Source of the DNA: Vicinamibacterales bacterium
Lineage (GTDB): Bacteria; Acidobacteriota; Vicinamibacteria; Vicinamibacterales; JAMQPK01
Assembly (NCBI GenBank): GCA_035937795.1
Contig: DASZHO010000062.1
Coordinates: forward strand, 7,467 to 71,466
Direction: 5' to 3'
DNA length: 64,000 nucleotides
The notes beneath the pieces were generated by a model, which made no database searches, was not told where the DNA came from, and saw only the letters and a program-made list of their open reading frames with translations. Positions 3,736 through 47,104 of this stretch are shown one piece after another (position 1 is the first letter of the stretch; each line of letters starts with the position of its first letter). Position numbers and translations under genes: made by a program.

Positions 3736-3760
3736 CGAGTCTGGAGCTGGGAATGAAATG

Positions 3761-6112: not shown

Positions 6113-6118
6113 TCTCTG

Positions 6119-7057: not shown

Positions 7058-7129
7058 GTCGACCTCTATCCATTTGCCTACGCAACAACCTGCGGGTGCT
7101 CCGTTTTGTCATAGCACGCCGCATGTTTT

Positions 7130-13600: not shown

Positions 13601-13602
13601 GA

Positions 13603-15711: not shown

Positions 15712-15713
15712 TC

Positions 15714-18586: not shown

Positions 18587-18606
18587 GGATCGAATTGAAA
18601 GTACGC

Positions 18607-19527: not shown

Positions 19528-19559
19528 TGTGGACCTCCGTTACCGCACTGTGCCATGGG

Positions 19560-21677: not shown

Positions 21678-21694
21678 GTCCCTCTCCACCCCCG

Positions 21695-23968: not shown

Positions 23969-24015
23969 AGGTAACCTGCTCCCGATTCTTACGCTCATTG
24001 CATGGAACACTGACG

Positions 24016-26516: not shown

Positions 26517-27928
26517 CAGTACCGGCCTCGCGCTGTCTTCCGAGTCAGCATCGCGGCGCCGACCGCCTCGCGTGTTGTCGAGCGGTCGCTGGCGGAGGAC
26601 GCTGAGGCCAGCGGCGCCGCAGGTCGATGCGGCCCGCCGTGCCGGTGAATGGCGAGGTCTTCGAGCAGATTCGCGGCCTGCGGAGCACCTCCGTAACGCG
26701 CAAAGTCGGCCGCGAGCCGCCGGGCGTTCTGCCGAAATGACTGCTCTCGCAGCACACGCTCGACTGCTGTGCGAATCGCCTCGGGCGTGCACTGACCAGG
26801 CGTCAGGCGCATGCCCGCCCCAGCCTCGGCAACTCGCCAGGCATTCTCAGGCTGGTCCCAGGCCATCGGCACGATAACGAGCGGCACCCCTGCAGACAAG
26901 GTAGCGAGAACGGTGCCCGTGCCGCCCGTGGTCACGACAACATCTGCGCGGGGAAGCAGCTCGATATGAGGCACCCACTGTTCGACCCGCGCATTCGGCG
27001 GAATTGAGCCAAGCCCGAGACTTCGCGGGTCTCGGTGCCTACCTGTCGTAGCAATGACCTGTGCCCGCAGAGACGCCAGCCCCTGCAAAGCCCCGCGCAA
27101 CAAGATCGGCGGCTTCGAATGCATCGTCCCCTCTGTCACATAGACGACGGGGCGGTCCCGTGGCAGATCGGTCAGCCACGGCGCGGGCGGAGCAGCGCCG
27201 GGTTTGTCCCACTGGCACGGACCGACGTAGCGCACCGACTGCGGCAAATCGTGCCGGGAACGGTCGTAGGCCGGCGTGCTGGGCATCAGGTAGAGAGGCA
27301 TCCGCCCCGCAAACGCCGTGACGGACGTGCCCATGGGCGCCAAACCGTGGCGCGCGCGAAGTACTTCGGCGCCCCGCCGCACGTCGGCCGCGACTACGTG
27401 CGCCACCGAGCGGAGCACGCTGCGGCCGAAACGTGCGAACCGTCCATGAGCACGCGGCAAGGGAACTCCCAGGATGGGGCCCTCGGGTCCGGGCAGCATG
27501 CACGCCCCGACGTACGACATGATGGCTAGCGGAACTCGCGCAGTCTCCTGAAGTACGAGCAGCGGACCCCACATCGCCGGATCGCAGACCAGCACGTCGG
27601 GACGCCAGGCGGACAGAACCACTGCCAGGTCCTCTAATTGCCCCTCGACCGTTCCCAGGAGCCACTCGCGCAGCAGCGCCTTGCTCTGCCGAGCCTTCCG
27701 CCACTGCAGGCTCTGCGCATCGAGAGCGAGCACGATCTTCTCGACCCGTTTCTCATCCACCGCCTGGAACGGGAAGCAGCGAAACCCCTCGCTTTCGAGC
27801 GACGGCCTGATAGAGTCGCCGGTATAGAAAGCGGTCTCGTGCCCGCGGTTGCCGAGGGCATGGGCAATTGGAACGTTCGGATGTATGTGCCCTGGATAGG
27901 GCCATACAGTGAAGAGGAACCTCGCCAT
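26516..27928 (-). CDS. GT1-family glycosyltransferase (MGT-like), tandem paralog of 25194-26516
   Basis: 'MARFLFTVWPYPGHIHPNVPIAHALGNRGHET' and 'VVVTTGGTGTVLATLSAGVPLVIVPMAWDQPENAWRVAEAGAG'. ATG 27928 verified. Confidence 0.85.
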   Translation of the reverse strand: MARFLFTVWPYPGHIHPNVPIAHALGNRGHETAFYTGDSIRPSLESEGFRCFPFQAVDEKRVEKIVLALDAQSLQWRKARQSKALLREWLLGTVEGQLEDLAVVLSAWRPDVLVCDPAMWGPLLVLQETARVPLAIMSYVGACMLPGPEGPILGVPLPRAHGRFARFGRSVLRSVAHVVAADVRRGAEVLRARHGLAPMGTSVTAFAGRMPLYLMPSTPAYDRSRHDLPQSVRYVGPCQWDKPGAAPPAPWLTDLPRDRPVVYVTEGTMHSKPPILLRGALQGLASLRAQVIATTGRHRDPRSLGLGSIPPNARVEQWVPHIELLPRADVVVTTGGTGTVLATLSAGVPLVIVPMAWDQPENAWRVAEAGAGMRLTPGQCTPEAIRTAVERVLREQSFRQNARRLAADFARYGGAPQAANLLEDLAIHRHGGPHRPAAPLASASSASDRSTTREAVGAAMLTRKTARGRY

Positions 27929-27940: not shown

Positions 27941-29542
27941 TTAATCCACGTAGCCCAGCGCCTGCAGGCGCCTCAGAATCTCGCTTTCTGCCTCCGCATC
28001 CAGCTCGGCCGCAACCATCTCCGGCGTGTGGACAGGTCCATCGTCCGAATACCTTGGCGGCCGCGTGCCGAGGACAGCCGGATCCAGAGCCTCCGACACG
28101 AAGCGCCCTTCCAAATTCGGCGGGATCGGCAAATCGAGCGCGTGGAGAAGCAAGGGCGCTACATCAAGGATCGACAGTGGTTGGATCCGGGCGCCCTTGT
28201 TTACGCCGGGACCGGCGAGGACCAGTACACCGTCAGGCCTGTGGGTGCCCGTCGGCAGCGGTCTGCGTCGCGCAGGATCCGGCGAGTCCAAAATTGAAAT
28301 CAGACCGCCATCAGCGAGCTCCAGTGTCAGATCCGGGGCCAGAGAGAGGTTCGGTCCCGTGAAGATCTCCTCCCGCGTCCACACACGTGCCACCACTGCT
28401 TCGCCTGACTCCGGGTCCCGAATCTGCAGAAGATCCGAGGCCAAATCGTCTCGAAACGCCTTGTACTCATCCGCGGATACCCCGTGCGGGTGCGTTTGGT
28501 CGGCGTGAACGATATGGATGCCGTTTCCGCTCGGCAGCGGCGCGAACGCCCGCGTGCGAGTCCAATCCATCTGAAAGACATGGCGCGCCATCTGGTTCAG
28601 TCCGAGCGCCGTCGCTCCCACGCTTGCTGGCGCCTCACCCGGCTGCCACGCAAGGCGGCCGGTCTGACGCAACCAGGCATTCACGAACAACGTACGGACC
28701 TGCGGCCCGAAGCCGTGGTCCGAGGCGATGAAGACGCTGGCCTCATCGCCAACGACATCCAGTAGTTCTTCAATGCGGCGGTCCAGCTCGCTGAAGTATT
28801 CGCGGCACTTGTCGCGGACGCGAAGCTCCCAATCCGAGGCGAGCGCTCCCGTCATCTTTGGGTCGATAAACCTCCAGCAGAGGTGCTGGATCTTGTCGAC
28901 GCCGTCAAACAGGACGGCGGTGAAGTCAGCCGGCTCCTTCTCGGCAAGGTAGCGCGCAATGTCGACCCACTGCCGCTCCCGGCGGATGTGCATGTCTATC
29001 CACGGCTCGTATTCGGCTTCCTCGCAGCCCTCGATCGCCTTCGCCTCCTGCGTCATATCGAGTGCCAGCTCACGCGCGTTGAACGATGGCAGCGTGCGTA
29101 GTCGGTCGAAGAGCCCCTCCGGATGACATCCGAGCCTGAGCTGCCGCCACGGCACGAACCCACCGGGCACGATGTGACCGGCAACCTTCGGCGGCGGAAA
29201 CGTGAGCGGAAAGTTCAAGACGGTCGATCGCAGCCCTGCGCTGTTGGCGAACGACCATATCGTCGGACACGCGACGTCATGCGAGGTGAGGAAGCGGAAC
29301 AACGGGCTCGATTCCCCGTCCTTGCGAAAAAAATCGAAAATGCCGTGTGATCCTGGTCCCCGACCGGTGACGAGCGAGGTCCACGCGGGTGGCGTCAGGG
29401 CCGGCACCGTCGATCGGAGGGTTGCGCGCACGCCCGAGCCAATCACGTCGCGCAGCACGGGCATCGCGCCCTCTTCCATCAGCGGATCGAGGAGGTCGAA
29501 CGTCGCGCCATCGAGTCCGATCAGGAGCACCTCGCGCGTCAT
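27941..29542 (-). CDS. Alkaline-phosphatase-superfamily enzyme (type I phosphodiesterase / nucleotide pyrophosphatase, PF01663-like)
   Basis: 'VLLIGLDGATFDLL' (metal-site Asp), 'PALTPPAWTSLVTG' (putative Thr nucleophile), 'VFIASDHGFG'. ATG 29542 overlaps the ACP stop (ATGA, 29539-29542). Confidence 0.75.
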   Translation of the reverse strand: MTREVLLIGLDGATFDLLDPLMEEGAMPVLRDVIGSGVRATLRSTVPALTPPAWTSLVTGRGPGSHGIFDFFRKDGESSPLFRFLTSHDVACPTIWSFANSAGLRSTVLNFPLTFPPPKVAGHIVPGGFVPWRQLRLGCHPEGLFDRLRTLPSFNARELALDMTQEAKAIEGCEEAEYEPWIDMHIRRERQWVDIARYLAEKEPADFTAVLFDGVDKIQHLCWRFIDPKMTGALASDWELRVRDKCREYFSELDRRIEELLDVVGDEASVFIASDHGFGPQVRTLFVNAWLRQTGRLAWQPGEAPASVGATALGLNQMARHVFQMDWTRTRAFAPLPSGNGIHIVHADQTHPHGVSADEYKAFRDDLASDLLQIRDPESGEAVVARVWTREEIFTGPNLSLAPDLTLELADGGLISILDSPDPARRRPLPTGTHRPDGVLVLAGPGVNKGARIQPLSILDVAPLLLHALDLPIPPNLEGRFVSEALDPAVLGTRPPRYSDDGPVHTPEMVAAELDAEAESEILRRLQALGYVD

Positions 29543-29865
29543 ACACCCTCCGACGCGCCCGCGGCGCGGGAAGCTGCGGCCACCGGTTGGCGGACGTGCC
29601 GCTCGATGAAGTCGACCCATTCACTAATCGTGAGGTCGCGTACTTCACGCTGTCCGATATCCGCGAAGAATTGTGGAAACGGAAAGGTCTGGCGGAAATG
29701 CTCCTGAACCTTTGAGCCAAGGACGACGAGATCTAGCGATTCGAACGCGAGGTCGGCGAACAGCCGGGTGTTGGCGCCGACCGGCCCTTCGAATTCCCAG
29801 TCTCGAGCCACGCCGTTCAGAAGCTCCAACACCTCTGCCAGGATCTGTTCGCGCGTATATGTCAT
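29539..29865 (-). CDS. Discrete acyl carrier protein
   Basis: 108 aa. 'FADLAFESLDLVVLGSKVQE' matches the (D/E)SLD phosphopantetheine-attachment helix. A 'GGAGGAAAG' lies ~8 nt upstream of ATG 29865. Confidence 0.7.
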   Translation of the reverse strand: MTYTREQILAEVLELLNGVARDWEFEGPVGANTRLFADLAFESLDLVVLGSKVQEHFRQTFPFPQFFADIGQREVRDLTISEWVDFIERHVRQPVAAASRAAGASEGV

Positions 29866-29898
29866 GAAGTGCTTTCCTCCATTGTGTTCAGGCGATCG

Positions 29899-32800
29899 TT
29901 ATCGAATACATGTGGCGACGATCCACTCGCCTTCGCGTGCGGTTGATGCCGACAGCGTGACGCTGCCCGCATTCGGCGACACGTAACGCATAACGACGGT
30001 GCCGCGCTCGCGGTGGATGCGCTCGACCGCCAGACCCTCGGACACGGGGTTGACGTCGCAGCCCGTGGCTTTGGCTGATGCTTCCTTCGCACACCACAGG
30101 CGTAGAGCCCATGCCTGGCGCTCGTCGCCGTCGAGGCTCTCGAGCATCTCGCGCTCACGGGCGCCAAACGCCACGTTCTCCATCCCCGGCTTCATTCGAC
30201 CGTACCGCTCGAGATCGATGCCAACGCCGGAGATGCCCTCGCCGTCGGTGAGAACGGCGACCGCCGCTCCATCGACGTGCGAAATCGAGACGAGCGGCAC
30301 CCGCGGCACCTGGCCGGTCCACGACCCGGTCACGATGGGCCGACCGGATGGCTCCGGCAAAATCTCGACATCGGCGGGACGCAGACTCAGGTGGAAGTGC
30401 CGCTGCAGATGATCGCGCACCGCATCCTTGGCCGCGATGCGCCCAAGGAGCCATTCGAGCCGACGCCGTTCGGGTACTTTCAAGCCGTACCAGATCGCGC
30501 GTTCGCGTCGGCCGAGGGTGAGCGCCCCGAGCACCCGGGACCACATCCCGCCGTGGGCGTGCAGCCAGCCAGGAGGAAACGTGTCGAGTCCGATCCTGAA
30601 CGCGATCACCCGATTCGTCTCGACTGCAGCGTTCACAAGCGCCCACGGATGAGACAACCGTACTGACGCGGGCTGTAGCAAACCGCGAAATGCCGCCTCC
30701 GGCAATTCGAAACGGCGATCCTCCCAATCCTTGAACCGCGCCCACAGACGCCCGTCCGAACGCACCACGTCCAGGTCGGAACGCACCTGATGATCTCCGA
30801 CCAGTGCGATATGCGCGCGACACGTGAGCTGTTCTCCTGCCGGAAGGGGAGGACCGTAGAGGTGCAGCGCTCCCATGCGGAAAGGCAGCACGACGAATCC
30901 ACGCTCGAGGTACTGAGACGTCCAGAAACCGACAGCCTGGCCGGGTTGATCCAGCAGGACGAAATCGGTGACGAGGCCGTCAGCGGCCTGGGGCGCGAGC
31001 AGCCTCTCCCGAGGGACGATCGTGAGCGTCGCCTCGGCCCCGTTGTCGCCGACGCGATCGATCGAGCGCACGCCGCGAAACAGCGGGCCGTGAAACATCG
31101 TTTCGTCGTACAACCGCTCGGGCGCCCATTTGTACGCCCGCTCGTGTTGCAGACCGAGCGGCTCCGGCGCGGGCGGTATCGGGTAGCTGTCGCCGAGCAG
31201 CATCACACCCTCTGCGACCGGTCCCGCCTCAGAAGCCCCAGCGTCCAGAACTCGAACTGATACCTGTGCGTCGCCGCTCCAATCGGCCGTGATTTCGAGC
31301 TGCAGCGATCCGCGGTCCACGGCGAGCCATCGATTGACGCGGACCTCCCGCATTCCGGTGACTGTTTTCTGCGGCGCGAGCGCTGTCGCTGCTTCTGCCA
31401 TGATTTCCATCAGTACCGTGAACGGCACGATCGGAAATCCTGTCAGAAGGGGATCATCGGCCGAAACGTTCCGGCCGAACGTGTGATCGCGCAGGAATGG
31501 ATGCTGATCGAGATCGAGCGTGCAGTGCGCCACCAACGGCCCGTCCACCCCGCCAGCGACAGTCTGGATGAGCGGCAACGGCCGGTATGCAGTGGCTGCG
31601 TCGCGCACGCCGGCGAACGTGTTGTTGATCAGGGCGTGCTCGACGGTCAGGAAGCGGTCCATCGTGTGCAAGAACGCCGACATCACTTGCGTTGCACCAG
31701 TTCGTTGCGCGGACGCGGAAATGGCCTGCGACTCGACGGTCTCCGACCGCATCGCCGCTGGCGGATTGGCCTCCTCGACGGTGGACCGGGTCGGCGGTGG
31801 TGCCACGTCCGCTAGGGTCGCGGGGCGGGCCGCGGGACTGGTCCGAGTACGGACCAACTCGATCATTTCTGGCGACAGGCGCATCGCGGGGGCGCCTGTC
31901 GGAAGCTTCACGGCGCCTAACGACCGACGCGGCGCGGTTTGCTTGGGGTCTGTCGTCCAGTCGATCCGCGACAATCGACGTCGTTCGTACAATGGCTCGA
32001 GCGTCAGTGCGACACCGTGTGCCGCGAGCTGCGCAATGAGATGGTGCAGCTGCAAGAGGCCGGTGCGACGGCTGACGTTTGCCGAGATGGCTGCGAACGG
32101 ACGATCGGCGAGGACGTCCTCGACAAAGGCCGTCAGGTTGCCCCGCGGTCCTGCCTCGACGAAGATGCGAAAGCCGTCCCGCCACATGTTTTCAATCGTG
32201 CGTCTGAATTCGACCGGCCGAATCCAGTGATCGAAGGCGAGCTGTTGCGCCCGCGCCAGATTTGACGGATACAGGGTCGTGCTCGTGCACGAGTAGAGCG
32301 GGACGACCGGCGGGCGCACGATCCACCGCTCGAGTAGAGGCCGCAGCGTCCGCGCGAAGGGTTCGAACTGCGGCGTATGGTACGGCCGGTCGAATGACAA
32401 CCGTTCGTAGAGGAGTCCTTCGTCTCGCAATCGCGCCTCGAGCACGCTCGCTGCGCCAGGATCGGCAATCACAACCACCTGATACCGGCAGTTATCCATC
32501 GCCACACAGGCCGTCAGGCCGATTGATGCGCACAGCGACTCCACCCGCTCCCGCGCTGCACCCACCGCGATCAGAGGTGCTTCGATCGGGAGATCGCCCG
32601 ACCCGGCAGCTTTTCCATGCTGATCGTTCAGCTCGACGACTCGTTGATCGTTGTGCACCTCGTCGACCATGCCGGCCGCACGCATCGCCGAGTACTCGCC
32701 GGAGCTGTGCCCCAGGACCGCGTCGGGGACGATACCGAGCCGTTTGAGAAGCGTACAGATCGCCTGGTTCGCGGCGACGACCGCCTCGACGGCCACGTCC

Positions 32801-34749
32801 ATCTGCCACAAGCGGCGTTCTGCGGCCGCGCGCTCGGCTTCGGTGAACGGCGGAGGCGGAAACACCAATTCACTGAGCCGATATCCGCGCGGATGGTTGA
32901 ACAGCACGCGATCCATCGCGTCGAAGCACGCGCGAACGCCGGGGAAATGACGGCAGAGATCGCTCAGCATGTTGACGTACTGCGCGCCCTCGCCGGGGAA
33001 CACGAACGCGAGCCTTCCGCTCCGCGCGAGCGGCTCGTCGAAGTAATAAATGCCGCCTACGTCTTTGATCTTGCGACACGTCGGGTCGCCAAGGCGCGTC
33101 AGCGCACGGTCCAGTTTGCGCGCCAGATCATCGATCGATCGTGCGACGATGCCGAGCGTGGTACTCGATGGTCCGCCGGCGCCGTGTTGGGTATTGAGCG
33201 AGTACGCCACGTCGGCAAGTGCTGGCGCCGGGTCGCGCGCCAGCACGGCTGCCACGCGACGACCGAGGCCAATCACCTCATCGCGACTGGCGACCGAGAA
33301 CAGACACACTTCGCTGTCCCACTCGGTATCGAGCGTCGGGCCATCATCAGGCGCGGGAGCTTCCTCGATGACGACGTGGGCGTTGATGCCGCCGAACCCG
33401 AAGGCGTTGATCCCTGCACGGCGCGGTTCGGTCGCGTCTCCATGGATCCACGGCCGCGTCTCCGTGTTGATGTAGAAGGGCGTGCGCTCGATTCCCAGCC
33501 GCGGACTCGGTCCTGTCACATTCAGTGTGGCCGGGAGCACCTTGTGGTAGAGGGCAAGCACGGCCTTGATGAAGCCCGCGATGCCGGCCGCCGGCATCGT
33601 ATGGCCGATCATCGACTTCACGCTGCCAAGTGCGCACTGTGGGGCCCGCACACGTGGCCCGAACACGCGAGCGAGTGCCTCGACTTCGGCGGCATCGCCC
33701 ACCAACGTGCCCGTGCCGTGCGCCTCAATGAGACCGACGGTCGACGGAGCAATGCCAGCCGCTGTGTACGCGCGCCGGAGGGCGAGCTCTTCCCCCTCGA
33801 TGCGGGGCGCAAGAACGCCGACAGCCCGGCCATCGCTCGCCACGCCCGTGCCCTTGATGAACGCGTAGATCCGATCGCCGTCTCGCTCGGCCTGCGACCG
33901 ACGCTTGAGGACGGCCATCCCGATTCCTTCGCTCAACAGGGTGCCATCCGCATCTTTGTCGAAGGGCCGGATGCGCTCGGTCAACGACAGCGCTTTCAGC
34001 TGACAGAACAGGCTGAGCACCGGAAGCGGTGTCGCCACCTGGAGGCCTCCCACGAGCGCGAGGTCGTACTCCCCATGACGAAGACCTTTCACGGCGATAT
34101 CGACGGCCACGAGCGACGAGGCGCACGCGGCGTCCACCGTGTAGCTGGGACCCATGATGTCCAGCCGGTTTGCGATGCGGCCCACTGTGACGTTCGGAAT
34201 CAGCGCAGGAGCTGTTTCCGCGTCGAACCGGGGAAGACGCCGTTTCAGATCCGCGCGAATGCGACACAGGTCCTCTTCGGTGAGCTCTGGTTGAATCGAT
34301 TTCAGCACTCCGAGCGTGTAATCCACGATGAGCGCATGCTGGACGACACTCAACGTCCCGCGGTTCGCGTACGTGCCCTTTCCCAGGATCAGGGCAGCTC
34401 GTTCGCGGTAGGCGCTGGCGTCCAGACATCCGGCATCGCGGAGCGCTTCGCGAGCGACGTGGAGTGCGAGCCACTGATCTGGCTCGCCACCTTCGACGGC
34501 GCGCGGCATGATGCCATGCTCCAGCGGATCGAAGTGGGCCAGCGGCCCGAGATAGCCACCTTTCCTGCAATACACCCGGTCGTTCTCGTCGGCGTTGACG
34601 TCGTAGTACACCGCCGGATCCCACGCCTCGTGCGGCGGATCCGTGATGGCGTCGACCTTGGACAAGATGTTTCGCCAGAACGCGCCGACGTTGGGCGCGC
34701 CCGGAAACAGACAGGCCACGCCGACAACGGCGATGTCTTCCGGCCTCAT
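29899..34749 (-). CDS. Pfa-like synthase subunit: KS-AT-DH-PPTase
   Basis: KS: 'IAVVGVACLFPGAPN', 'VDAACASSLVAVDIA', 'EAHGTGT', 'SMIGHTMPAAG'. AT: 'FVFPGEGAQY', 'GHSSGEYSAMRAAG'. DH (double hotdog): 'HPFLRDHTFGRNV...FPIVPFTVLMEIMAEAA', 'LLDQPGQAVGFW'. The C-terminal ~250 aa carry Sfp-type PPTase motifs 'SISHVDG', 'GVGIDLER', 'WCAKEASAKATG'. There is an ATGA overlap with the upstream gene (34746-34749). Confidence 0.9.
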   Translation of the reverse strand: MRPEDIAVVGVACLFPGAPNVGAFWRNILSKVDAITDPPHEAWDPAVYYDVNADENDRVYCRKGGYLGPLAHFDPLEHGIMPRAVEGGEPDQWLALHVAREALRDAGCLDASAYRERAALILGKGTYANRGTLSVVQHALIVDYTLGVLKSIQPELTEEDLCRIRADLKRRLPRFDAETAPALIPNVTVGRIANRLDIMGPSYTVDAACASSLVAVDIAVKGLRHGEYDLALVGGLQVATPLPVLSLFCQLKALSLTERIRPFDKDADGTLLSEGIGMAVLKRRSQAERDGDRIYAFIKGTGVASDGRAVGVLAPRIEGEELALRRAYTAAGIAPSTVGLIEAHGTGTLVGDAAEVEALARVFGPRVRAPQCALGSVKSMIGHTMPAAGIAGFIKAVLALYHKVLPATLNVTGPSPRLGIERTPFYINTETRPWIHGDATEPRRAGINAFGFGGINAHVVIEEAPAPDDGPTLDTEWDSEVCLFSVASRDEVIGLGRRVAAVLARDPAPALADVAYSLNTQHGAGGPSSTTLGIVARSIDDLARKLDRALTRLGDPTCRKIKDVGGIYYFDEPLARSGRLAFVFPGEGAQYVNMLSDLCRHFPGVRACFDAMDRVLFNHPRGYRLSELVFPPPPFTEAERAAAERRLWQMDVAVEAVVAANQAICTLLKRLGIVPDAVLGHSSGEYSAMRAAGMVDEVHNDQRVVELNDQHGKAAGSGDLPIEAPLIAVGAARERVESLCASIGLTACVAMDNCRYQVVVIADPGAASVLEARLRDEGLLYERLSFDRPYHTPQFEPFARTLRPLLERWIVRPPVVPLYSCTSTTLYPSNLARAQQLAFDHWIRPVEFRRTIENMWRDGFRIFVEAGPRGNLTAFVEDVLADRPFAAISANVSRRTGLLQLHHLIAQLAAHGVALTLEPLYERRRLSRIDWTTDPKQTAPRRSLGAVKLPTGAPAMRLSPEMIELVRTRTSPAARPATLADVAPPPTRSTVEEANPPAAMRSETVESQAISASAQRTGATQVMSAFLHTMDRFLTVEHALINNTFAGVRDAATAYRPLPLIQTVAGGVDGPLVAHCTLDLDQHPFLRDHTFGRNVSADDPLLTGFPIVPFTVLMEIMAEAATALAPQKTVTGMREVRVNRWLAVDRGSLQLEITADWSGDAQVSVRVLDAGASEAGPVAEGVMLLGDSYPIPPAPEPLGLQHERAYKWAPERLYDETMFHGPLFRGVRSIDRVGDNGAEATLTIVPRERLLAPQAADGLVTDFVLLDQPGQAVGFWTSQYLERGFVVLPFRMGALHLYGPPLPAGEQLTCRAHIALVGDHQVRSDLDVVRSDGRLWARFKDWEDRRFELPEAAFRGLLQPASVRLSHPWALVNAAVETNRVIAFRIGLDTFPPGWLHAHGGMWSRVLGALTLGRRERAIWYGLKVPERRRLEWLLGRIAAKDAVRDHLQRHFHLSLRPADVEILPEPSGRPIVTGSWTGQVPRVPLVSISHVDGAAVAVLTDGEGISGVGIDLERYGRMKPGMENVAFGAREREMLESLDGDERQAWALRLWCAKEASAKATGCDVNPVSEGLAVERIHRERGTVVMRYVSPNAGSVTLSASTAREGEWIVATCIR
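29902..30711 (-). other. Integrated Sfp-type 4'-phosphopantetheinyl transferase domain (C-terminus of the KS-AT-DH protein)
   Basis: The last ~270 aa after the DH double hotdog carry 'GRPIV...VSISHVDG', 'GVGIDLERY' and 'LWCAKEASAKATG'. These correspond to the PPTase signatures (V/I)G(I/V)D and (F/W)(S/C/T)xKE(A/S)xxK. Confidence 0.75.
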
Positions 34750-37562: not shown

Positions 37563-40500
37563 TACGCGACAGCCGCCTCGGCCTGTCCGGCCAGCAGCTC
37601 CGCAAGAACGGACGCCGTTTCGCGCAGCCCCTTGATTGCTGTCAGCTTCTCCATTGCCCCCTGGAACGCACCGCGTCGAGCGCCTGCGTGCATCTGCTGA
37701 AATGCCGTCAGGATTTCCATGCGCTTGATCGAATCGATCCCCAGGTCTGCCTCGATGTTCGCGTCGGCGTCGAGCATCTCCAGCGGGTACCCGGTGCGCT
37801 CGCTGACGATGTGGAGCAACTGCGACAGAACGTCGGACGCCGAGGTGCCCGCCTGCAGCACGCCCGCAGCGGGCTGAGCGGCCGCCGGCGCAGGCGCCGC
37901 CACCATCACCGCGGCGGGTTGCGACGCGGGTTTCGACGGCGCCGCCACCGCGTGCACGGCAGAGGCAGCGACCGGTGGGGCCACGGGCGACGCCGTCACG
38001 AACTGCGCCGCGCTGTACCCAGCGGGCGGTGCAGGTCGCGGCGTCAACGCTCGCGGCGCAGCAGAAGCGACCGCCGGCAGCGTGGATGGCAGCATGGATG
38101 GGCCGACAGCGGGCGCCCCCTGCAGGTAGGCTGTCATCACGAGGGCTTGCGTCTGCAGGAACTGACTCATGAGCTGCTGAAACTGGCGCATGACGTCGTC
38201 GGAGTCTGTGTCAACCCTGAACTGAGGGCTCGGAATCGGCGAATCTGATTGCATAAGGCCATCCTGAGGAATGGGGATCTCGTCGGAGGATTCAACCGCG
38301 TTCGATGTCGGCGCGGCCAGAGCGCCAACCGGCGCCAAGGCCTGCCGCGACGCCGAGGCCTGCCGCGGCGCCTTCGACCTCGTCTCGTCCTGTCGGCGCG
38401 CCCGTCCGCCGCTGACCATCCAGACGTGCCGGGGGAGCGGTTCGGCCGGCGCCAGGTCCGCGAGCTGGATCGACTCGATCGCGCGACCCCGCCACAATTC
38501 CTCGAAATCGATCGGCACACCGGCAACCGCCAGCTGCGCGACGACGTGGAGCAGTTGTACGACTCCGTGTCGCTCCTGCGAATCCATCGACAGGATCACC
38601 GGACCGTGAACCGACAGCGTCTCGCGCACCAGGCTCGAGAGGACCGCGCGAGGACCGACTTCGACGAAGATCCGGGCACCCTCCCGGTACATCGCGTCCA
38701 GCTGCTCGGCGAACCGGACCGGCGCACTGATGTGTTCGGAAAGGACCCTTCTGATTTCCCCTGGCTCGGCCGGATACGGCGCCGCCAATGTGTTCGAGAA
38801 CACCGGAATCTTCGGTTCGTGAACATCGGTTCGCGCGAGAAGTTCGGCCATCACACGTCCCGCGGGCTGGACGAGCGGCGTGTGGAATGCGCACGCGACG
38901 GGGATTCGCCGCGCCGCCAGACCCGCCGCCGACAAAGCCACGACCGCGGCGTCGATCGCGTCGACGCGTCCAGCCAATACGGTTTGCCTCGGCGAATTCA
39001 CATTCGCGATCCACACATCGGCCGGTTGCGCCAGCACCCGCGTGATCGCGTCCGGCGACGCTGACACCGCGGCCATCGTTCCGGAATGATCGCCAGCGGC
39101 AGCCTTGATCGCGCGGCCACGGGCCGCCGAAATCGCGAAGAGGACATCGGTTGGGAACGCTCCCGCGACCGACAAGGCGACATACTCACCGTAGCTGTGC
39201 CCGGCCGTCATGTCCGGGCGCACGCCAAGCCGTCGAAGCAGATCGCACAGGCCAATCTCGACCGCTCCCAACGCGGGCTGTGCCACGACGGTATCCGTCA
39301 GCTCGCGCAGCTGCTGGTCCGCCTGATCGTCCGAGAACGCGGGCGGCGGGAGCACATACGAGCTCAAGCGTCGCGAGTACTGGCCTGACGTCACACGATC
39401 GGCGACCTCCAGCGCATGCCGCAGATCGGGGAAATGCACGGACAAATCGCGAAGCATGCCCGGATACTGCGAGCCCTGCCCCGGAAACAGGAATGCAACC
39501 TTTCCGACCGGTTCGCGGAGCCCGGACAAGTACAAACCGGCGGCTTCCATCACGTGTGTCTTGCCCGTCTTCAGCGCCTCGCATAAAGCCGCCAGCTTGC
39601 TGCGCAGATCCCTTGGGGAGGAGGCAACGATCGCGAGCCGCACGGCACCGGGTGCCGACCCGCTCGCCGTGCGACAGATCGCTGCTGCGATACTGCGCAA
39701 CGGCACATCGGGAGCGCGCGACAGCCGCTCCTCGAGCTGCTGGAGCGTGGCGAGGAGATGTTGCGGGCTCGGACTGGTGAAATACGCCACTTCCGATGGC
39801 CACGTCTCGGTGGGAGCGGCTTCAGGCAGCGCGCCGGGGCCGCTCCGTTCGTACTCTTCGACGACGACGTGAAAGTTCGTTCCGCCGAAGCCGAACGAGC
39901 TGACGGCCGCTCGCCGCGGCTGCTCGGGGTCTGGCGACGCCACCCACGGGAGTGGCTCGGTGTTGACGAAGAAGGGCGTGCCGGCCTCGCGCAGCTTTGC
40001 GTTCGGCCTGGTCACGTGGAGCGTGGGCGGCAGCACCTTGTGATGCAGCGCGAGCGCCACCTTGAGCAGACCACTGACGCCTGCTGCGGACTTCGTGTGG
40101 CCGATCATCGATTTGATCGACCCGAGCGCGCACGATCCTGGCGGTGTGCCGGCGGCTTCGAACGCGCGCGCAAGGGCGGTGACCTCCGCCGTATCGCCCG
40201 CCACGGTGCCGGTGCCGTGCGCCTCGACCAAGCCAATCGTGGCTGGCGAGAAGCCTGCCGCCGCGTACGCACGCTGGAGAACCCGCACCTGGCCCTCGGG
40301 CCGCGGGGCCGTCAGACCTTTACCGCGGCCGTCGCTCGAGCCCGCTACGCTACGGATGACGGCATATATCCGGTCGCCGTCCCGTTCCGCGTCCGCCACC
40401 CGCTTCAGCACGAGAGCGACCAGCCCCTCGCTGATCACAATCCCGTCGGCGGTGTCGTCGAACGTGCGGCAGCGCCCGGTTGGCGACAACGCCTGCGCGG

Positions 40501-43363
40501 AGCTGAAGCACAGATAACCGAACGGGCTGTTCACCGTATCGATGCCGCCGACGATCACCATGTCGCTGGCGCCAGATTCCAGCTCCCGCGCGGCCACGTA
40601 CACCGCCGCGAGCGACGACGCGCATGCGGCGTCGACGGTGAAGTTCAGACCGCCCAGATTGAGCCGGTTGGCGACACGACCAGCGGCCACGTTCAGCAGC
40701 ACTCCGGCAAAGGAGTCTTCGGTCCATTCCGGCAGCTGCGCGAGCGTCTCCTCCGGCACGGTGTCAAGGTACATTGGCAGGCCCGCCCGGATCCCATAAC
40801 GGAAGCCCAGATCGCCGCCACCGCCGCTGGCGCCGAGGATGACGGAGGTGCGTTCCCGATCGAACGATCGATCGCCGTATCCCGCATCATCGAGCGCCTG
40901 GTAGACGACTTCGAGCGTCAGGAGTTGAAACGGATCGATCGACGGCACCGCCGCAGGCGGAATACCGTACTTCAGCGGATCGAACGGGATTTCGCCGAGA
41001 AACCCGCCCCATTTCGAGTAGATCTTGTCGCGCGCGCGCCGATCGGTGTCGTAGTACCGAGTCGCGTCGAACCGCTCGGGGGGAATCTCGCCAATCGCAT
41101 CGGCCTTGTTGAAGACATTGCTCCACAGCGTGCGCGCGTCGGACGCATGGGGAAGAAGACAGCCGGCGCCGACAATGGCGATCTTCGACGACAACGACGC
41201 GGCGGCCGGCAGCTCCGACTGTGCGGTCACGGACGCGACGACCTTGCCGTTCAAAAGGGCGGTGCTGTCGATCGACACGGCGTGATGCAGGTCCGCGACT
41301 GAACACGTCGCATTGCGGAGCGCGGCCACCTGCCCGATCATGTACATGCCGTCGGCGCGCTGCACCTCCCTGTCAATCGAAACGTAGGCTGTCTGCTCGC
41401 GGCCTCCTTCGCTTGCCCGTGCGATGCCCTTCGAGGCGACGCGCAGCCGGCCGAGGTTCAGGATCTCGAGCTTCAGGCGGATATCGTCAGGTTTTTCACC
41501 CTGGTCAACCAACCGCCTGTGGGTCTCGCGGAACAGGTCGAAGAACGGCGTGTCCGCGCACCTCGTCGCGTGCCCAGGCCCGGATTCCAGCAGCACCGTC
41601 CGGGAGCATTTCACGGCCTCTTCCTGAAATGCTTCGACGATCGCGCCGGTCGCGACGGCTTCCTCGGTGAAGAGATAGGCTGTGCCCATCAGGACGCCAA
41701 TCCGCGCGCCGAGCTTCGCGAGCGGCGCACCGATGGTGGCGACCATCGCCGCCGACCGCGCATCGTGAATGCCGCCGGCAAACACGACGTGGAGCTCGCT
41801 CGCCGGCACGCCGCGCTCAACGGCTTCGATGAGCGTGTCGACCATCGACTCCCAGAGTACGAAGCTGGTCCTCGGCCCCACGTGGCCGCCGCACTCACGC
41901 CCTTCGAAAATAAACCGGCGCGCCCCGTCGTCGAGGAACATCTGAAGAAGCGACGGCGCCGGCACATGCAGGTACGTGGGGATGCCGTGCTTTTCGAGCT
42001 TCGACGCCTGATCCGGACGTCCTCCGGCGATCAGCGCGAACGGTGGTCTGAACTCTTCGATCACGCGCAGCTGCTCTTCCCGGAGCTCGTTCGGAACGAA
42101 CCCGAGAATGCCGACGCCCCAGGAGCGATCTGCGAGCAGCTCCTTCGTTGCGGCGAGCAGCGATCGCACCTCCGGCCCACGCAGGAGCGCAAAGGCCAGA
42201 AACGGCAACCCGCCGGCTTTGGCGACCGCGTCCGCGAAGGGAGCGGTGTCGCTGACTCGCGTCATGGGACCCTGGAGGATTGGGTATTCGGTTCGATGCG
42301 CAACGGCGAGCGGGGCGCCGCGATCGAGGGGCCGCAACTGCTGCGCGGTGGTGACGTGTTCGGACAGCGCTTCCGACAGGCCGGACAGGATTCCGCTCAC
42401 GGATCGGAAGCGGCGAGCCAGCGTGCGCGCAAACGTGGCGTCCTGACCGAGCGGCCACATTGGCGCGCCAACGCCGGTCCAGTTGATGCGCTTCCCGACA
42501 GCCTGCTGCCACTCGGCGTGGGTGTTTGGTTCCGCCGCAATCGTCCGCGCAAGCTCGCTTTCGAGGCGTTGCAGCTCATCGACCGCCTCGAAGCCGGGCC
42601 GGCGGTACACCCGGTAACGATCGGCGAGCTCGCCGCCGAGGCAGACAGTTTCGTCGCCTCCCATCCGGCGCAGGACCTTTTTGACGGCGCCCGGCAGTGC
42701 CGACTCGCGCGCGAGCGCCAACTGCACGTCGAGGACGGCCCCGGCACATCCGGCGACGAAACACGCTCCAATGGTGTGGCAGCCGATTCCTCCATGCGCG
42801 TACACAGGGAGAGTGGTTTCGGCGACAAGCCGCTGGACGAGCACGAAGGTCGTCTCGTCGCCCACCCGGCCGCCCGATTCATGCCCCTTCGCAATCAGCC
42901 CGTTCACACCCAGTTCCGAGCCCAGGCGTGCTTCGTCGGCGGTTGTGCATTCGAGCAAGAGCTCACGGGAAGGTGCGCGCAGGCGATCGATCGAATCGAT
43001 GGTGTCAGCGAGCGCGCGGGTCGCGACGATGACGACATCGATCGCATCAGCGAGATCCCGGCACGGATCGAGCACGCCGGTCGCGTCCACGCGGACGCCG
43101 AGACGACCTGGCTTGTTCCACGTCAGAGCCGCGAGGCTCGCCCTGACTTCCGACGCCGTCATCGCTTCGAGGTTGAGGACGGCCGTGGCGCCAGCCCGCG
43201 CAGCGGCGCGGAGGACGCTGACATCGGGCCATCCAGGCAAGCTCGAAACGATGAAGGGCCAGGCAGTCGTGGTTCGCCCGGTGCGTGGTTCCATGCTCCT
43301 CGTAACGGCGGCGCCGACGAGCAGCGCCTCGATTGCGACAGAAACGTGACTTGCAGGCTGCAC
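37562..43363 (-). CDS. Pfa-like synthase subunit: tandem PfaD/nitronate-monooxygenase-type enoyl reductase domains + KS-AT-ACP
   Basis: ER-like domain 1 (aa ~30-330): 'LIAKGHESGGRVGDETT', 'VYAHGGIG'. ER domain 2 (aa ~350-700): 'PILQGPMTRVSD', 'FEGRECGGHVGPRTS', 'VVFAGGIHD'. KS: 'IAIVGAGCLLPHAS', 'VDAACASSLAAVYVA', 'EAHGTGT', 'SMIGHTKSAAG'. AT: 'FLFPGQGSQY', 'GHSYGEYVALSVAG', 'CAFHT'. ACP: 'DLGIDSIKRMEIL'. The start is uncertain: GTG 43363 or ATG 43294. Confidence 0.9.
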   Translation of the reverse strand: MQPASHVSVAIEALLVGAAVTRSMEPRTGRTTTAWPFIVSSLPGWPDVSVLRAAARAGATAVLNLEAMTASEVRASLAALTWNKPGRLGVRVDATGVLDPCRDLADAIDVVIVATRALADTIDSIDRLRAPSRELLLECTTADEARLGSELGVNGLIAKGHESGGRVGDETTFVLVQRLVAETTLPVYAHGGIGCHTIGACFVAGCAGAVLDVQLALARESALPGAVKKVLRRMGGDETVCLGGELADRYRVYRRPGFEAVDELQRLESELARTIAAEPNTHAEWQQAVGKRINWTGVGAPMWPLGQDATFARTLARRFRSVSGILSGLSEALSEHVTTAQQLRPLDRGAPLAVAHRTEYPILQGPMTRVSDTAPFADAVAKAGGLPFLAFALLRGPEVRSLLAATKELLADRSWGVGILGFVPNELREEQLRVIEEFRPPFALIAGGRPDQASKLEKHGIPTYLHVPAPSLLQMFLDDGARRFIFEGRECGGHVGPRTSFVLWESMVDTLIEAVERGVPASELHVVFAGGIHDARSAAMVATIGAPLAKLGARIGVLMGTAYLFTEEAVATGAIVEAFQEEAVKCSRTVLLESGPGHATRCADTPFFDLFRETHRRLVDQGEKPDDIRLKLEILNLGRLRVASKGIARASEGGREQTAYVSIDREVQRADGMYMIGQVAALRNATCSVADLHHAVSIDSTALLNGKVVASVTAQSELPAAASLSSKIAIVGAGCLLPHASDARTLWSNVFNKADAIGEIPPERFDATRYYDTDRRARDKIYSKWGGFLGEIPFDPLKYGIPPAAVPSIDPFQLLTLEVVYQALDDAGYGDRSFDRERTSVILGASGGGGDLGFRYGIRAGLPMYLDTVPEETLAQLPEWTEDSFAGVLLNVAAGRVANRLNLGGLNFTVDAACASSLAAVYVAARELESGASDMVIVGGIDTVNSPFGYLCFSSAQALSPTGRCRTFDDTADGIVISEGLVALVLKRVADAERDGDRIYAVIRSVAGSSDGRGKGLTAPRPEGQVRVLQRAYAAAGFSPATIGLVEAHGTGTVAGDTAEVTALARAFEAAGTPPGSCALGSIKSMIGHTKSAAGVSGLLKVALALHHKVLPPTLHVTRPNAKLREAGTPFFVNTEPLPWVASPDPEQPRRAAVSSFGFGGTNFHVVVEEYERSGPGALPEAAPTETWPSEVAYFTSPSPQHLLATLQQLEERLSRAPDVPLRSIAAAICRTASGSAPGAVRLAIVASSPRDLRSKLAALCEALKTGKTHVMEAAGLYLSGLREPVGKVAFLFPGQGSQYPGMLRDLSVHFPDLRHALEVADRVTSGQYSRRLSSYVLPPPAFSDDQADQQLRELTDTVVAQPALGAVEIGLCDLLRRLGVRPDMTAGHSYGEYVALSVAGAFPTDVLFAISAARGRAIKAAAGDHSGTMAAVSASPDAITRVLAQPADVWIANVNSPRQTVLAGRVDAIDAAVVALSAAGLAARRIPVACAFHTPLVQPAGRVMAELLARTDVHEPKIPVFSNTLAAPYPAEPGEIRRVLSEHISAPVRFAEQLDAMYREGARIFVEVGPRAVLSSLVRETLSVHGPVILSMDSQERHGVVQLLHVVAQLAVAGVPIDFEELWRGRAIESIQLADLAPAEPLPRHVWMVSGGRARRQDETRSKAPRQASASRQALAPVGALAAPTSNAVESSDEIPIPQDGLMQSDSPIPSPQFRVDTDSDDVMRQFQQLMSQFLQTQALVMTAYLQGAPAVGPSMLPSTLPAVASAAPRALTPRPAPPAGYSAAQFVTASPVAPPVAASAVHAVAAPSKPASQPAAVMVAAPAPAAAQPAAGVLQAGTSASDVLSQLLHIVSERTGYPLEMLDADANIEADLGIDSIKRMEILTAFQQMHAGARRGAFQGAMEKLTAIKGLRETASVLAELLAGQAEAAVA

Positions 43364-43470
43364 GGCCCACAGATTGTCGGGGTCGCTTCCCCGTCAATCG
43401 GTCTGCCGGGCGGTTCGGCGAGTGTGTCGAGAGGACCGCCAAAACGGGAGCGCGGCGATAGCGGGCGATT

Positions 43471-46991: not shown

Positions 46992-47104
46992 GACGAATCT
47001 CCTTCGATTGGTTTGACGGTGCGCGCATGCGCCAGAAAAAACGCGTGTATCCTCCGATGCGCTAGCGCGAGTGTCAAGCGATAAACGACGACGGAATCGA
47101 TCCT

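What the first reader, a model, noticed from the sequence alone, without database searches (positions are those of the whole stretch)
29539..43363. Non-canonical Pfa-type synthase: [ER'-ER-KS-AT-ACP] / [KR-DH] / [KS-AT-DH-PPTase] / ACP
Seen: the domain motifs listed in the features. There are two complete KS domains (both with Cys-His-His motifs, so no CLF), two ATs, a single in-line ACP plus one discrete ACP, PKS-type double-hotdog DHs rather than FabA-type pairs, and the ER at the N-terminus of the first subunit. Three of the gene junctions are stop/start overlaps (37562, 34746-34749, 29539-29542). Established: canonical PUFA synthases (PfaA-D) have tandem ACP arrays, a KS-CLF pair, FabA-like DH pairs and a separate PfaD. 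The heterocyst glycolipid Hgl proteins differ again. Inference: this is a distinct secondary-lipid synthase type, probably iterative, and its product chain is not predictable from sequence.
Basis: partly seen in the sequence, partly recalled or inferred. Interest (0 to 1): 0.8.

Follow-up and report, generated by a model that had tools for sequence, protein, structure and literature searches.

The report
Ars/type-M-like iterative lipid synthase
This is a real four-gene fatty-acid/polyketide megasynthase whose unusual layout was read correctly, but the layout was catalogued in 2011, occurs in hundreds of bacterial genomes, and still has no known lipid product.

Summary
Window 29539-43363 (minus strand) encodes four translationally coupled genes:
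- P1: ER'-ER-KS-AT-ACP
- P2: KR-DH
- P3: KS-AT-DH-PPTase
- P4: a 108-aa ACP

Both KS domains keep Cys-His-His. There is no CLF, no FabA-type DH, and only one in-line ACP.

The claim that this is a distinct new type is only partly right. Shulse & Allen 2011 (Table S1) list the same three-part layout, ER-KS-MAT-ACPn-KR / KS-AT-PPTase / ACP, as types M, N and O, whose products are unknown. Type P (Azotobacter/Beijerinckia ArsA/ArsD) is the related, characterised C22-C26 fatty acid synthase.

P1 plus the P2 KR region is collinear with a Beijerinckia ArsA-like protein (41% identity). P3 is collinear with a Streptomyces type-M-like KS-AT-DH-PPTase. KS1 and KS2 cluster with their counterparts in those systems.

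At least 593 stretches in species-representative genomes encode relatives of P3.

Additions from this work:
- ER' is a conserved pseudo-reductase. Its catalytic His is absent in all 50 homologues.
- AT2 lacks the malonyl-binding Arg, as PfaB does.
- A cytoplasmic NPP-type phosphodiesterase, an alpha/beta hydrolase and an unknown secreted protein travel with the cassette.

Here the cassette heads a ~42-kb glycolipid-type operon.

The parts
37562..43363 (-). P1, 1933 aa: ER'(pseudo)-ER-KS-AT(malonyl)-ACP, a fused pfaD-pfaA/ArsA-like N-terminal part
   Evidence: Pfam and NCBIfam. It is 41% identical and collinear over ~1950 aa with the Beijerinckia ArsA-like protein, and 44% identical to the Streptomyces type-M-like protein.
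42530..43228 (-). ER' (aa ~46-278): diverged duplicate of the ER TIM barrel, with the catalytic His replaced by Arg
   Evidence: NMO hit of 40 bits. hhalign of ER' against ER profiles gives 96% probability, E 1.9e-9. The His position is W/R/F/E/L in 50/50 homologues. The Beijerinckia and Streptomyces proteins have Q and R there.
41414..42292 (-). ER (aa ~358-650): PfaD/FabK-type FMN enoyl reductase, catalytically complete
   Evidence: NMO hit of 65.6 bits. TIGR03151 FabK matches aa 358-621. GPM and ECGGH are invariant in 58-59 of 59 homologues. The motifs are those described in PMC13311796.
39830..41188 (-). KS1 (aa 726-1178), Cys-His-His
   Evidence: The KS1 clade also holds the Beijerinckia ArsA-like KS and the Streptomyces type-M-like A KS.
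38612..39493 (-). AT1 (aa 1291-1584): malonyl transferase (PGQGSQ, GHSYGE, Arg, CAFH)
   Evidence: The Arg is present in 64/64 homologues and xAFH is conserved.
37694..37822 (-). In-line ACP core (aa 1848-1890), LGIDSIKRMEI
   Evidence: Single PP-binding hit in P1; sequence.
34746..37562 (-). P2, 938 aa: pseudo-KR + KR (aa 131-577) and PKS-type DH (aa 641-924; HxxxGxxxxP and DxxxQ present). It corresponds to the PfaA C-terminus.
   Evidence: (TIGR02813 positions 1756-2579). The KR region is 41% identical to the C-terminus of the Beijerinckia ArsA-like protein. A separate KR-DH gene is present in 22 loci.
29899..34749 (-). P3, 1616 aa: KS2 (aa 4-520), AT2 (aa 582-884, Arg-less), PKS-type DH (aa 1069-1348), Sfp-type PPTase (aa 1427-1614)
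   Evidence: It is 34% identical and collinear with the Streptomyces KS-AT-DH-PPTase. Its DH-PPTase half matches the Beijerinckia ArsD-like protein at 29%, E 7.5e-49.
29539..29865 (-). P4, 108 aa: discrete carrier protein (FESLD), with a strong Shine-Dalgarno sequence
   Evidence: The Ser is invariant in 58/58 homologues. A gene of ~100-111 aa follows the P3 homologue in L001, L002, L004, L005, L073 and L087.
27941..29542 (-). 533-aa cytoplasmic NPP-type phosphodiesterase/pyrophosphatase, start overlapping the P4 stop.
   Evidence: Pfam Phosphodiest, E 6.8e-40. Thr50 and the metal ligands are conserved. The AF2 model has pLDDT 84.6. Foldseek top hits are ENPP1/3, Xac NPP and PhnA. It lies downstream of P3 in 44 of 53 GTDB loci.
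15714..16577 (-). Alpha/beta hydrolase (GHSWG), homologue of the hydrolase that follows the cassette elsewhere
   Evidence: tblastn. The family is present in 38 of 53 loci. Pfam on representatives.
21695..24133 (-). 812-aa exported protein with no known family, conserved with the cassette
   Evidence: No Pfam or NCBIfam hit. Relatives occur in 29-31 loci. A signal/anchor segment lies at aa ~59-80.
16668..27928 (-). Tailoring block: four GT1 glycosyltransferases (26516-27928, 25194-26792, 20403-21707, 17327-18586), a PD40 lipoprotein, a TylF O-methyltransferase, an FkbM methyltransferase and a class I methyltransferase
   Evidence: Pfam. Relatives of the GT1s occur in 12 cassette loci.
1357..15987 (-). 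Same-strand continuation: FAAL-ACP, a KS-AT(YASH)-DH-ER-KR-ACP module, a methyltransferase, and two epimerase-FAD oxidase fusions

Best explanation
The four genes encode a self-activating, iterative type I fatty-acid-synthase-like 'secondary lipid' synthase. It belongs to the family that includes Azotobacter/Beijerinckia ArsA/ArsD (type P) and Shulse & Allen types M/N/O.

Proposed course of events:
1. The PPTase domain of P3 converts the in-line ACP of P1 and the discrete ACP P4 to their holo forms.
2. AT1 loads malonyl units.
3. KS1 and KS2 share the repeated condensations, probably over different chain-length ranges.
4. The single KR, the two PKS-type DHs and the one active ER reduce each round. 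ER' serves only as the structural partner of the ER barrel.
5. The result is a long (about C20 or more), largely saturated acyl chain built on the in-line ACP.
6. The Arg-less, PfaB-like AT2 then moves the finished chain off the in-line ACP, most likely onto P4.
7. From P4 the conserved alpha/beta hydrolase and the NPP-type phosphodiesterase process or release the chain.

In this organism the chain then feeds a glycolipid pathway: four GT1s, sugar methyltransferases, a FAAL plus one methylmalonyl-type reducing PKS module, and exported proteins. The expected product is a cell-envelope glycolipid.

Shown: domain content, catalytic residues, homology, and gene linkage.
Inferred: iterativity, chain length and saturation, division of labour between the two KS, the AT2-to-P4 transfer, the phosphodiesterase's role, and the glycolipid end product.
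For: Domain content and motifs.

Homology to catalogued types:
- P1 is 41% identical and collinear with the Beijerinckia ArsA-like protein over ~1950 aa.
- The P2 KR region is 41% identical to that protein's C-terminus.
- The DH-PPTase half of P3 matches the ArsD-like protein at E 7.5e-49.
- P3 is collinear with the Streptomyces KS-AT-DH-PPTase.
- The KS1 and KS2 clades each hold their counterparts from these systems.

Literature:
- Architecture listing for types M/N/O/P.
- The ars system is a single-ACP synthase of C22-C26 fatty acids.

ER' versus ER: His is absent in 50/50 homologues of ER' and present in 59/59 of ER. The two domains are homologous. ERs of this class act as dimers.

AT2: the Arg is replaced (most often by Asn) and PGQGSQ is replaced by PGEGAQ. 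PfaB, shown to be a terminal long-chain acyltransferase, has the same Arg-to-Asn change.

P4 Ser is invariant. PPTase motifs are invariant.

Linkage downstream of P3, among 53 loci: phosphodiesterase 44, ACP 39, hydrolase 38, unknown exported protein 31.

FAAL/ACS-ACP also sits next to the cassette in Actinosynnema and Caldilineae.
Against: - No member with this exact architecture has a known product.
- The only characterised relative (type P) has one KS, one AT and one DH, and hands its chain to type III PKSs. Those are absent here.
- The extra KS2-AT2 and second DH could mean partial reduction (retained hydroxyl groups or double bonds) rather than a saturated chain.
- AT2 keeps GHSxG, unlike bacterial PfaB (GYSMG), so the PfaB analogy is incomplete.
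- P4 could instead carry a starter unit.
- Nothing tested here shows what the phosphodiesterase acts on.
- The link between the synthase and the distal FAAL-PKS and GT genes rests only on same-strand adjacency.
Confidence: 0.75

Rival explanations
1. The synthase makes a partly reduced long chain, with retained mid-chain or omega-1 hydroxyl/keto groups or isolated double bonds, as in heterocyst glycolipid aglycones. KS2 and the second DH would handle a branch of the cycle that skips ER or DH. The glycosyl, sulfate and methyl groups added by neighbouring genes would then sit on those hydroxyls.
For: There are two DHs and two KS against one each in the saturated-chain type P system. Across loci the cassette is linked with GT1s, SDRs, sulfotransferases and sulfatase-like genes, all of which need hydroxyl acceptors. 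There are four GT1s in the window.
Against: The ER is catalytically intact and invariant. No sequence feature was found that programmes skipping. Glycosylation could equally use a reduced terminal alcohol or the carboxyl group.
Confidence: 0.35
2. It is a canonical PUFA synthase variant that makes EPA/DHA-type polyunsaturated fatty acids or the C31:9 olefin precursor.
For: PfaA is the best NCBIfam model for P1, P2 and P3. The ER is PfaD-type. The ACP motif LGIDSIKR is Pfa-like.
Against: All TIGR02813 scores fall below the 1010 cut-off (809, 328, 614). There is no FabA-type DH/isomerase, no CLF, no tandem ACPs and no ole genes.
Confidence: 0.03
3. P3 works like an enediyne/polyene PKSE (KS-AT-ACP-KR-DH-PPTase) and the system makes a conjugated polyene.
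For: A C-terminal DH-PPTase fused to KS-AT is otherwise typical of PKSE (own knowledge). Many P3 relatives carry an internal ACP.
Against: P3 has no KR or ACP of its own. An active ER is present and invariant. No enediyne-cassette genes appear among the scanned ORFs. The closest comparators are ArsA/ArsD-like and type-M-like proteins.
Confidence: 0.04
4. It is a non-iterative two-module assembly line that performs only two condensations and gives a short acyl product.
For: There are two KS-AT pairs in two proteins.
Against: Only one in-line ACP serves both KS, plus one discrete ACP. There is a single KR and a single active ER. The system is homologous with the iterative Ars FAS and with PfaA. 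AT2 is not a malonyl-type AT.
Confidence: 0.03

Closest known systems
Shulse & Allen (2011) secondary lipid synthase types M, N and O (Frankia, Renibacterium, S. avermitilis, Actinosynnema; Chitinophaga, Chryseobacterium; Dinoroseobacter, Gloeobacter, Parvularcula)
   Same: They share the three-part layout ER-KS-MAT-ACPn-KR / KS-AT-PPTase / discrete ACP. A Streptomyces plasmid cluster of this layout (L087) is collinear with P1 (44%) and P3 (34%), and its KS domains fall in the same KS1 and KS2 clades. An alpha/beta hydrolase and a GT follow in both.
   Different: Here the first protein is split after the ACP, and the separate P2 carries a DH after its KR. The Streptomyces protein ends after its KR. 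The window has one in-line ACP rather than 2-3. The NPP-type phosphodiesterase is present here but absent from the Streptomyces locus. Products of M/N/O are unknown, so function cannot be compared.
ArsA/ArsD type I fatty acid synthase of the alkylresorcinol (ars) operon, type P (Azotobacter vinelandii, Beijerinckia indica)
   Same: The ER'-ER-KS-MAT-ACP-KR order matches, with 41% identity over ~1950 aa. The pseudo-ER is shared. A DH-PPTase unit is homologous to the C-terminal half of P3. Type P has one or two ACPs and is iterative, making C22-C26 fatty acids from malonyl-CoA.
   Different: Type P has no KS2-AT2, no discrete ACP and no phosphodiesterase. It has two type III PKS genes that take the chain directly. 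None is in the window or in any of the 80 GTDB loci.
Canonical PUFA synthase PfaABCDE
   Same: The KS-MAT-ACP-KR-DH' order matches PfaA. Both have a PfaD-type ER and a second, non-malonyl AT lacking the Arg, as PfaB does.
   Different: The window has no tandem ACP array, no KS-CLF and no FabA-type DH pairs. Its ER is fused and duplicated, and its PPTase is fused.
Heterocyst glycolipid synthase (HglE/C/D/B, type F)
   Same: Both are Pfa-related synthases linked to glycosyltransferases, so a long-chain glycolipid is the likely end product.
   Different: Hgl has separate KR, KS, CLF-AT and ER genes and an ACP-TE/reductase gene. None of that layout is found here.

Membership tests
Types M/N/O secondary lipid synthases (Shulse & Allen 2011) | First protein ER-KS-MAT-ACP(1-3)-KR | tested here: met
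   P1 plus P2 give ER'-ER-KS-AT-ACP / KR(-DH). The same protein is fused in L002 and L073.
Types M/N/O secondary lipid synthases (Shulse & Allen 2011) | Second protein KS-AT-PPTase | tested here: met
   P3 is KS-AT-DH-PPTase. The paper did not annotate PKS-type DH domains.
Types M/N/O secondary lipid synthases (Shulse & Allen 2011) | Discrete ACP gene directly downstream | tested here: met
   P4 starts 33 nt after P3. Its Ser is invariant in 58/58 homologues.
Types M/N/O secondary lipid synthases (Shulse & Allen 2011) | Proximal KS groups phylogenetically with the type | tested here: inconclusive
   KS1 and KS2 group with a Streptomyces plasmid cluster of type-M layout in an NJ tree without bootstrap. 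The paper's own accessions could not be fetched.
Type P / Ars type I FAS (ArsA/ArsD) | ArsA-like ER-KS-MAT-ACP-KR protein | tested here: met
   41% identity, collinear with Beijerinckia WP_012382816.
Type P / Ars type I FAS (ArsA/ArsD) | Stand-alone DH-PPTase protein (ArsD) | tested here: not met
   A homologous DH-PPTase is present, but fused behind an extra KS-AT in P3.
Type P / Ars type I FAS (ArsA/ArsD) | Type III PKS genes between the two synthase genes | tested here: not met
   tblastn with both Beijerinckia type III PKSs finds nothing in the window.
Type P / Ars type I FAS (ArsA/ArsD) | Product is C22-C26 saturated fatty acid retained on the ACP | not testable with these tools
   Needs biochemistry.
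Canonical PUFA synthase (PfaA-E) | Tandem ACP array (4 or more) | tested here: not met
   One PP-binding hit in P1.
Canonical PUFA synthase (PfaA-E) | KS-CLF pair | tested here: not met
   Both KS keep Cys-His-His, and the residues are conserved in homologues.
Canonical PUFA synthase (PfaA-E) | FabA-type DH/isomerase pair | tested here: not met
   Only PKS_DH_N/PS-DH hits appear.
Canonical PUFA synthase (PfaA-E) | TIGR02813 (PfaA) score at or above the 1010 cut-off | tested here: not met
   Scores are 809, 328 and 614 bits.
Heterocyst glycolipid synthase (type F) | Separate KR, KS, CLF-AT, ER and ACP-TE genes | tested here: not met
   The layout differs from Table S1.
Enediyne PKSE | Single KS-AT-ACP-KR-DH-PPTase protein without ER | tested here: not met
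   P3 lacks ACP and KR. An active ER is present.

The most novel reading that the evidence does not exclude
The discrete ACP, the embedded PPTase and the NPP-type phosphodiesterase, which occur together in about four fifths of cassette loci, could form a previously undescribed off-loading cycle. AT2 would park the finished chain on P4. The phosphodiesterase would then cut the Ser-phosphopantetheine phosphodiester (or a related phosphodiester). This would release an acyl-phosphopantetheine-type or phospho-linked lipid and regenerate apo-ACP for re-priming by the in-cis PPTase. In addition, the ER'-ER tandem would be an intramolecular pseudo-dimer replacing the ER homodimer.
Probability: 0.1. 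Interest if true: 0.8.

Novelty: new member of a known kind. Interest (0 to 1): 0.4.

Why it matters
This synthase family is very widespread. At least 593 stretches in GTDB species-representative genomes encode relatives of P3, spanning Acidobacteriota, Chloroflexota, Actinomycetota, Planctomycetota, Cyanobacteria and Proteobacteria. Yet only its reduced type P form has a known product.

The window shows the family heading a long glycolipid-type operon in a probable Vicinamibacteria (Acidobacteriota subdivision 6) genome, a major soil group with poorly known lipids.

The comparative data turn an old catalogue entry into specific, testable hypotheses: a pseudo-ER, a PfaB-like AT2, and constant partners (ACP, NPP-type phosphodiesterase, hydrolase, unknown exported protein). 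They also name cultured carriers in which the product could be found.

It is not a new class of enzyme.

Tried and rejected
- I tried to read Miyanaga 2008 and Funa 2006 for the ArsA/ArsD domain maps. Neither paper is held. Text searches for ArsA/ArsD domain descriptions gave nothing useful.
- I had recalled ArsD as KS-AT-DH-PPTase. The Beijerinckia ars-like locus shows its ArsD counterpart is only DH-PPTase, 629 aa, so I dropped the idea that the window is simply a split Ars system.
- A homologue search seeded with the Aquipseudomonas P3-like protein, meant to reach Azotobacter ArsD, returned only cassette-type relatives.
- PDB sequence searches with P1 and P3 gave only generic PKS KS-AT matches.
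- Four literature searches for a characterised product of types M/N/O or for this cassette found none. A 2026 paper still calls the Renibacterium-type synthase uncharacterised.
- A promoter/terminator scan upstream of P1 found nothing.
- I counted second-DH occurrence by tblastn but did not use the count, because the P2 and P3 DHs cross-hit.
- No structure was predicted for ER'-ER. No permitted alignment was available and a single-sequence model would be unreliable.
Full report

Yes. The minus strand carries four consecutive ORFs at 37562-43363 (1933 aa), 34746-37562 (938 aa), 29899-34749 (1616 aa) and 29539-29865 (108 aa).

Pfam and NCBIfam give the following:
- P1: NMO-type ER, KS, AT and one PP-binding domain.
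- P2: KR plus PKS-type DH. It matches PfaA model positions 1756-2579.
- P3: KS, AT, PKS-type DH and an ACPS-type PPTase.
- P4: a borderline PP-binding hit (19.9 bits against a cut-off of 20.8).

Scanning the two halves of the P1 N-terminus separately shows two NMO domains, both above the cut-off (40 and 65.6 bits). The last 313 residues hold only one ACP.

Both KS domains carry Cys-His-His. AT1 reads GHSYGE and AT2 reads GHSSGE. No FabA-type DH was reported.

P4 has a GGAGGAAAG ribosome-binding site.

**2. What surrounds it**

The synthase heads a same-strand run of genes down to about position 1357. In order:
- an NPP-family phosphodiesterase whose start overlaps the P4 stop
- two GT1 glycosyltransferases
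- a PD40 lipoprotein
- an 812-aa exported protein with no known family
- a GT1
- TylF and FkbM methyltransferases
- a GT1
- a class I methyltransferase
- an alpha/beta hydrolase
- a FAAL-ACP
- a KS-AT-DH-ER-KR-ACP module
- a further methyltransferase
- two epimerase-FAD oxidase fusions

Upstream lies a 1200-aa ORF with no relatives in the comparison loci, followed by a hairpin. Beyond it the genes run on the other strand.

The closest named relatives are Acidobacteria gp6 / Vicinamibacteria MAGs.

**3. How common is it**

P3-like proteins with the same KS-AT-DH-PPTase domain set fill the top 120 hits of two protein searches.

A scan of one genome per GTDB species found at least 593 stretches that encode relatives of P3. 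The 80 best come from the following groups:
- Acidobacteriota
- Solirubrobacteraceae
- Chloroflexota
- Planctomycetota, including anammox bacteria
- Cyanobacteria
- Alpha-, Beta- and Gammaproteobacteria, including cultured Aquipseudomonas alcaligenes and Rubrivivax gelatinosus
- cultured isolates from other groups: Sinimarinibacterium, Stagnimonas, Singulisphaera, Smaragdicoccus and Nitrolancea

tblastn with the window's domains shows the same order in most loci: ER', ER, KS-AT, ACP, KR-DH, KS-AT-DH-PPTase, small ACP, phosphodiesterase.

Among 53 loci with at least 5 kb downstream of the PPTase:
- 44 have the phosphodiesterase
- 39 have the ACP (a lower bound, because the query is short)
- 38 have the alpha/beta hydrolase
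- 31 have the unknown exported protein
- 12 have a GT1

A separate KR-DH gene, as in the window, occurs in 22 loci. In others, P1 and P2 are one protein.

**4. Comparison with what is known**

Shulse & Allen 2011, Table S1, lists ER-KS-MAT-ACP(1-3)-KR / KS-AT-PPTase / ACP for these organisms:
- Frankia, Renibacterium and S. avermitilis
- Actinosynnema, with an ACS-ACP gene in front
- Chryseobacterium and Chitinophaga
- Dinoroseobacter, Gloeobacter and Parvularcula

These correspond to their types M, N and O, whose products are unknown. Actinosynnema appears in Table S1 with the same layout, but its type letter was not seen in the text read here.

For type P (Azotobacter, Beijerinckia) the table lists ER-KS-MAT-ACP-KR plus a PPTase protein. 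Type P makes the C22-C26 alkyl chains of phenolic lipids.

A 2026 survey still calls the Renibacterium-type arrangement (fused pfaDA; pfaBC with PPTase) uncharacterised.

I fetched two reference loci from the plasmid collection.
- Beijerinckia pBIND02 carries the ars-like cluster: a 2674-aa ER'-ER-KS-AT-ACP2-KR protein, two type III PKSs, and a 629-aa DH-PPTase.
- A Streptomyces plasmid carries a type-M-like cluster: a 2308-aa ER'-ER-KS-AT-ACP-KR protein, a 1496-aa KS-AT-DH-PPTase, a 108-aa ACP, then a hydrolase, a GT and a methyltransferase.

Pairwise comparisons:
- P1 is 41% identical to the Beijerinckia protein and 44% to the Streptomyces protein, collinear with both.
- The P2 KR region is 41% identical to the C-terminus of the Beijerinckia protein.
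- The DH-PPTase half of P3 matches the ArsD-like protein at E 7.5e-49.
- P3 is collinear with the Streptomyces second protein at 34%.

In an NJ tree rooted on the window's own modular KS:
- KS1 falls with the ArsA-like KS and the Streptomyces first-protein KS.
- KS2 falls with the Streptomyces second-protein KS.

No type III PKS is present in the window or in any of the 80 GTDB loci.

The window is therefore a member of the M/N/O group. It is a relative, not a member, of the characterised type P.

**5. New details that bear on mechanism**

(a) ER' is a degenerate copy of ER.
- The two profiles align at 96% probability.
- The catalytic His of the xE(A/C)GGH motif is never present in ER' (0/50) and always present in ER (59/59). 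That motif is described for FabK/PfaD.
- The GPM flavin motif is found only in ER.
- The same holds in the Beijerinckia and Streptomyces proteins.
- ERs of this class work as dimers, and thraustochytrid ERb/ERc form a heterodimer. A pseudo-dimer within one chain is the simplest reading. This is an inference.

(b) AT1 has all malonyl-transferase marks: PGQGSQ, the Arg in 64/64 homologues, and xAFH. AT2 has PGEGAQ, no Arg (most often Asn), and R-A-Y-H-T. PfaB, recently shown to be a terminal long-chain acyltransferase, also has Asn in place of this Arg. AT2 is therefore more likely to move finished acyl chains than to load malonate. This too is an inference.

(c) The Ser of P4 is invariant, so P4 is a real carrier protein.

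(d) Both DHs keep the catalytic His and the DxxxQ motif, and the PPTase motifs are invariant.

(e) The phosphodiesterase has the following properties:
- It has no signal peptide.
- It keeps the Thr nucleophile and all metal ligands of NPP enzymes.
- It models confidently, with pLDDT 84.6.
- It is structurally closest to ENPP1/3, Xanthomonas NPP and phosphonoacetate hydrolase.
- Its family has 3238 representatives at E<=1e-30.
- Its substrate is unknown.

**6. Most likely mechanism**

This is an iterative, self-priming type I FAS-like synthase. It builds a long acyl chain from malonyl-CoA on the P1 ACP. It uses KS1 and KS2 over different parts of the elongation, one KR, two DHs and one active ER.

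AT2 then passes the chain on, probably to P4. The hydrolase and the phosphodiesterase act next. In this genome the chain enters a glycolipid pathway.

The main alternative is that the extra KS and DH programme partial reduction. That would leave hydroxyl groups for the sugars, or for the sulfates seen in other loci.

The PUFA, enediyne-like and non-iterative readings are each contradicted by tested features (see the rival explanations and membership rows).

**7. Verdict**

The architecture, however, is a known, catalogued and very common kind whose product is still unknown. The window adds a new member with a rich tailoring context and several testable details.

Interest is moderate. It would rise sharply only if the ACP-PPTase-phosphodiesterase trio proved to be a new release mechanism.

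Noticed in passing
window 7130-15987 (-): A FAAL (AMP-binding + ACP, 13603-15987) overlaps the start of a single fully reducing module, KS-AT-DH-ER-KR-ACP (7130-13606). The module's AT reads GQSMGE...YASH, the methylmalonyl-type signature. The arrangement resembles mycobacterial FadD-Mas/Pks pairs that add methyl-branched units to long fatty acids. FAAL/ACS-ACP genes also sit beside the cassette in Actinosynnema (Table S1) and in Caldilineae locus L005.
   Followed up: partly
window 1357-3735 and 3761-6112 (-): Two paralogous ~790-aa fusions of an NAD-dependent epimerase/SDR domain with FAD_binding_4 + ALO domains. This is the domain pair of the DprE2/DprE1 lipid-linked sugar 2'-epimerase, here in one chain.
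   Followed up: no
window 21695-24133 (-): An 812-aa protein with an N-terminal signal/anchor and no Pfam or NCBIfam match. It has relatives (35-57% identity) in 29-31 of the cassette loci across phyla. It is a conserved, unnamed, exported partner of this synthase family.
   Followed up: partly
window 48464-49849 (+): A second, shorter (461 aa) NPP-family phosphodiesterase upstream of the operon on the other strand. Close relatives lie next to the cassette in L001, L006 (75% identity) and L023.
   Followed up: partly
P1 aa 1725, P2 aa 21, P3 aa 1023 (window ~38116-38190, ~37428-37502, ~31609-31683, minus strand): A ~25-residue motif, V[ML]xxFxxxMxxFLxx[QE], occurs once in each of the three large subunits. 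In each it sits in a linker: before the ACP (P1), at the N-terminus (P2) and before the DH (P3). It could be a docking or dimerisation helix.
   Followed up: no
window ~43470-43510: A 13-bp inverted repeat (GGTGATGACCGGC ... GCCGGTCGTCACC) lies just after the stop of the upstream 1200-aa ORF and before P1. It has no T-run, and the terminator scan did not call it.
   Followed up: no
window 43521-47123 (-): A 1200-aa ORF with hydrophobic N-terminal segments. It has no family match and no relative in any of the 87 comparison loci.
   Followed up: no
L020 (Candidatus Brocadia), P0187 (Candidatus Scalindua japonica): Anammox planctomycetes carry close relatives of the ER'-ER-KS-AT-ACP-KR-DH / KS-AT-DH-PPTase pair. 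In L020 no phosphodiesterase was detected, but the contig ends ~330 nt after the P3 match, so its absence is not shown.
   Followed up: no
L001, L002, L004, L018, L059: In other cassette loci the tailoring genes are sulfotransferases (Sulfotransfer_3, arylsulfotransferase) and sulfatase-family proteins rather than, or in addition to, GT1s. This suggests that different polar head groups are put on a common lipid core.
   Followed up: partly
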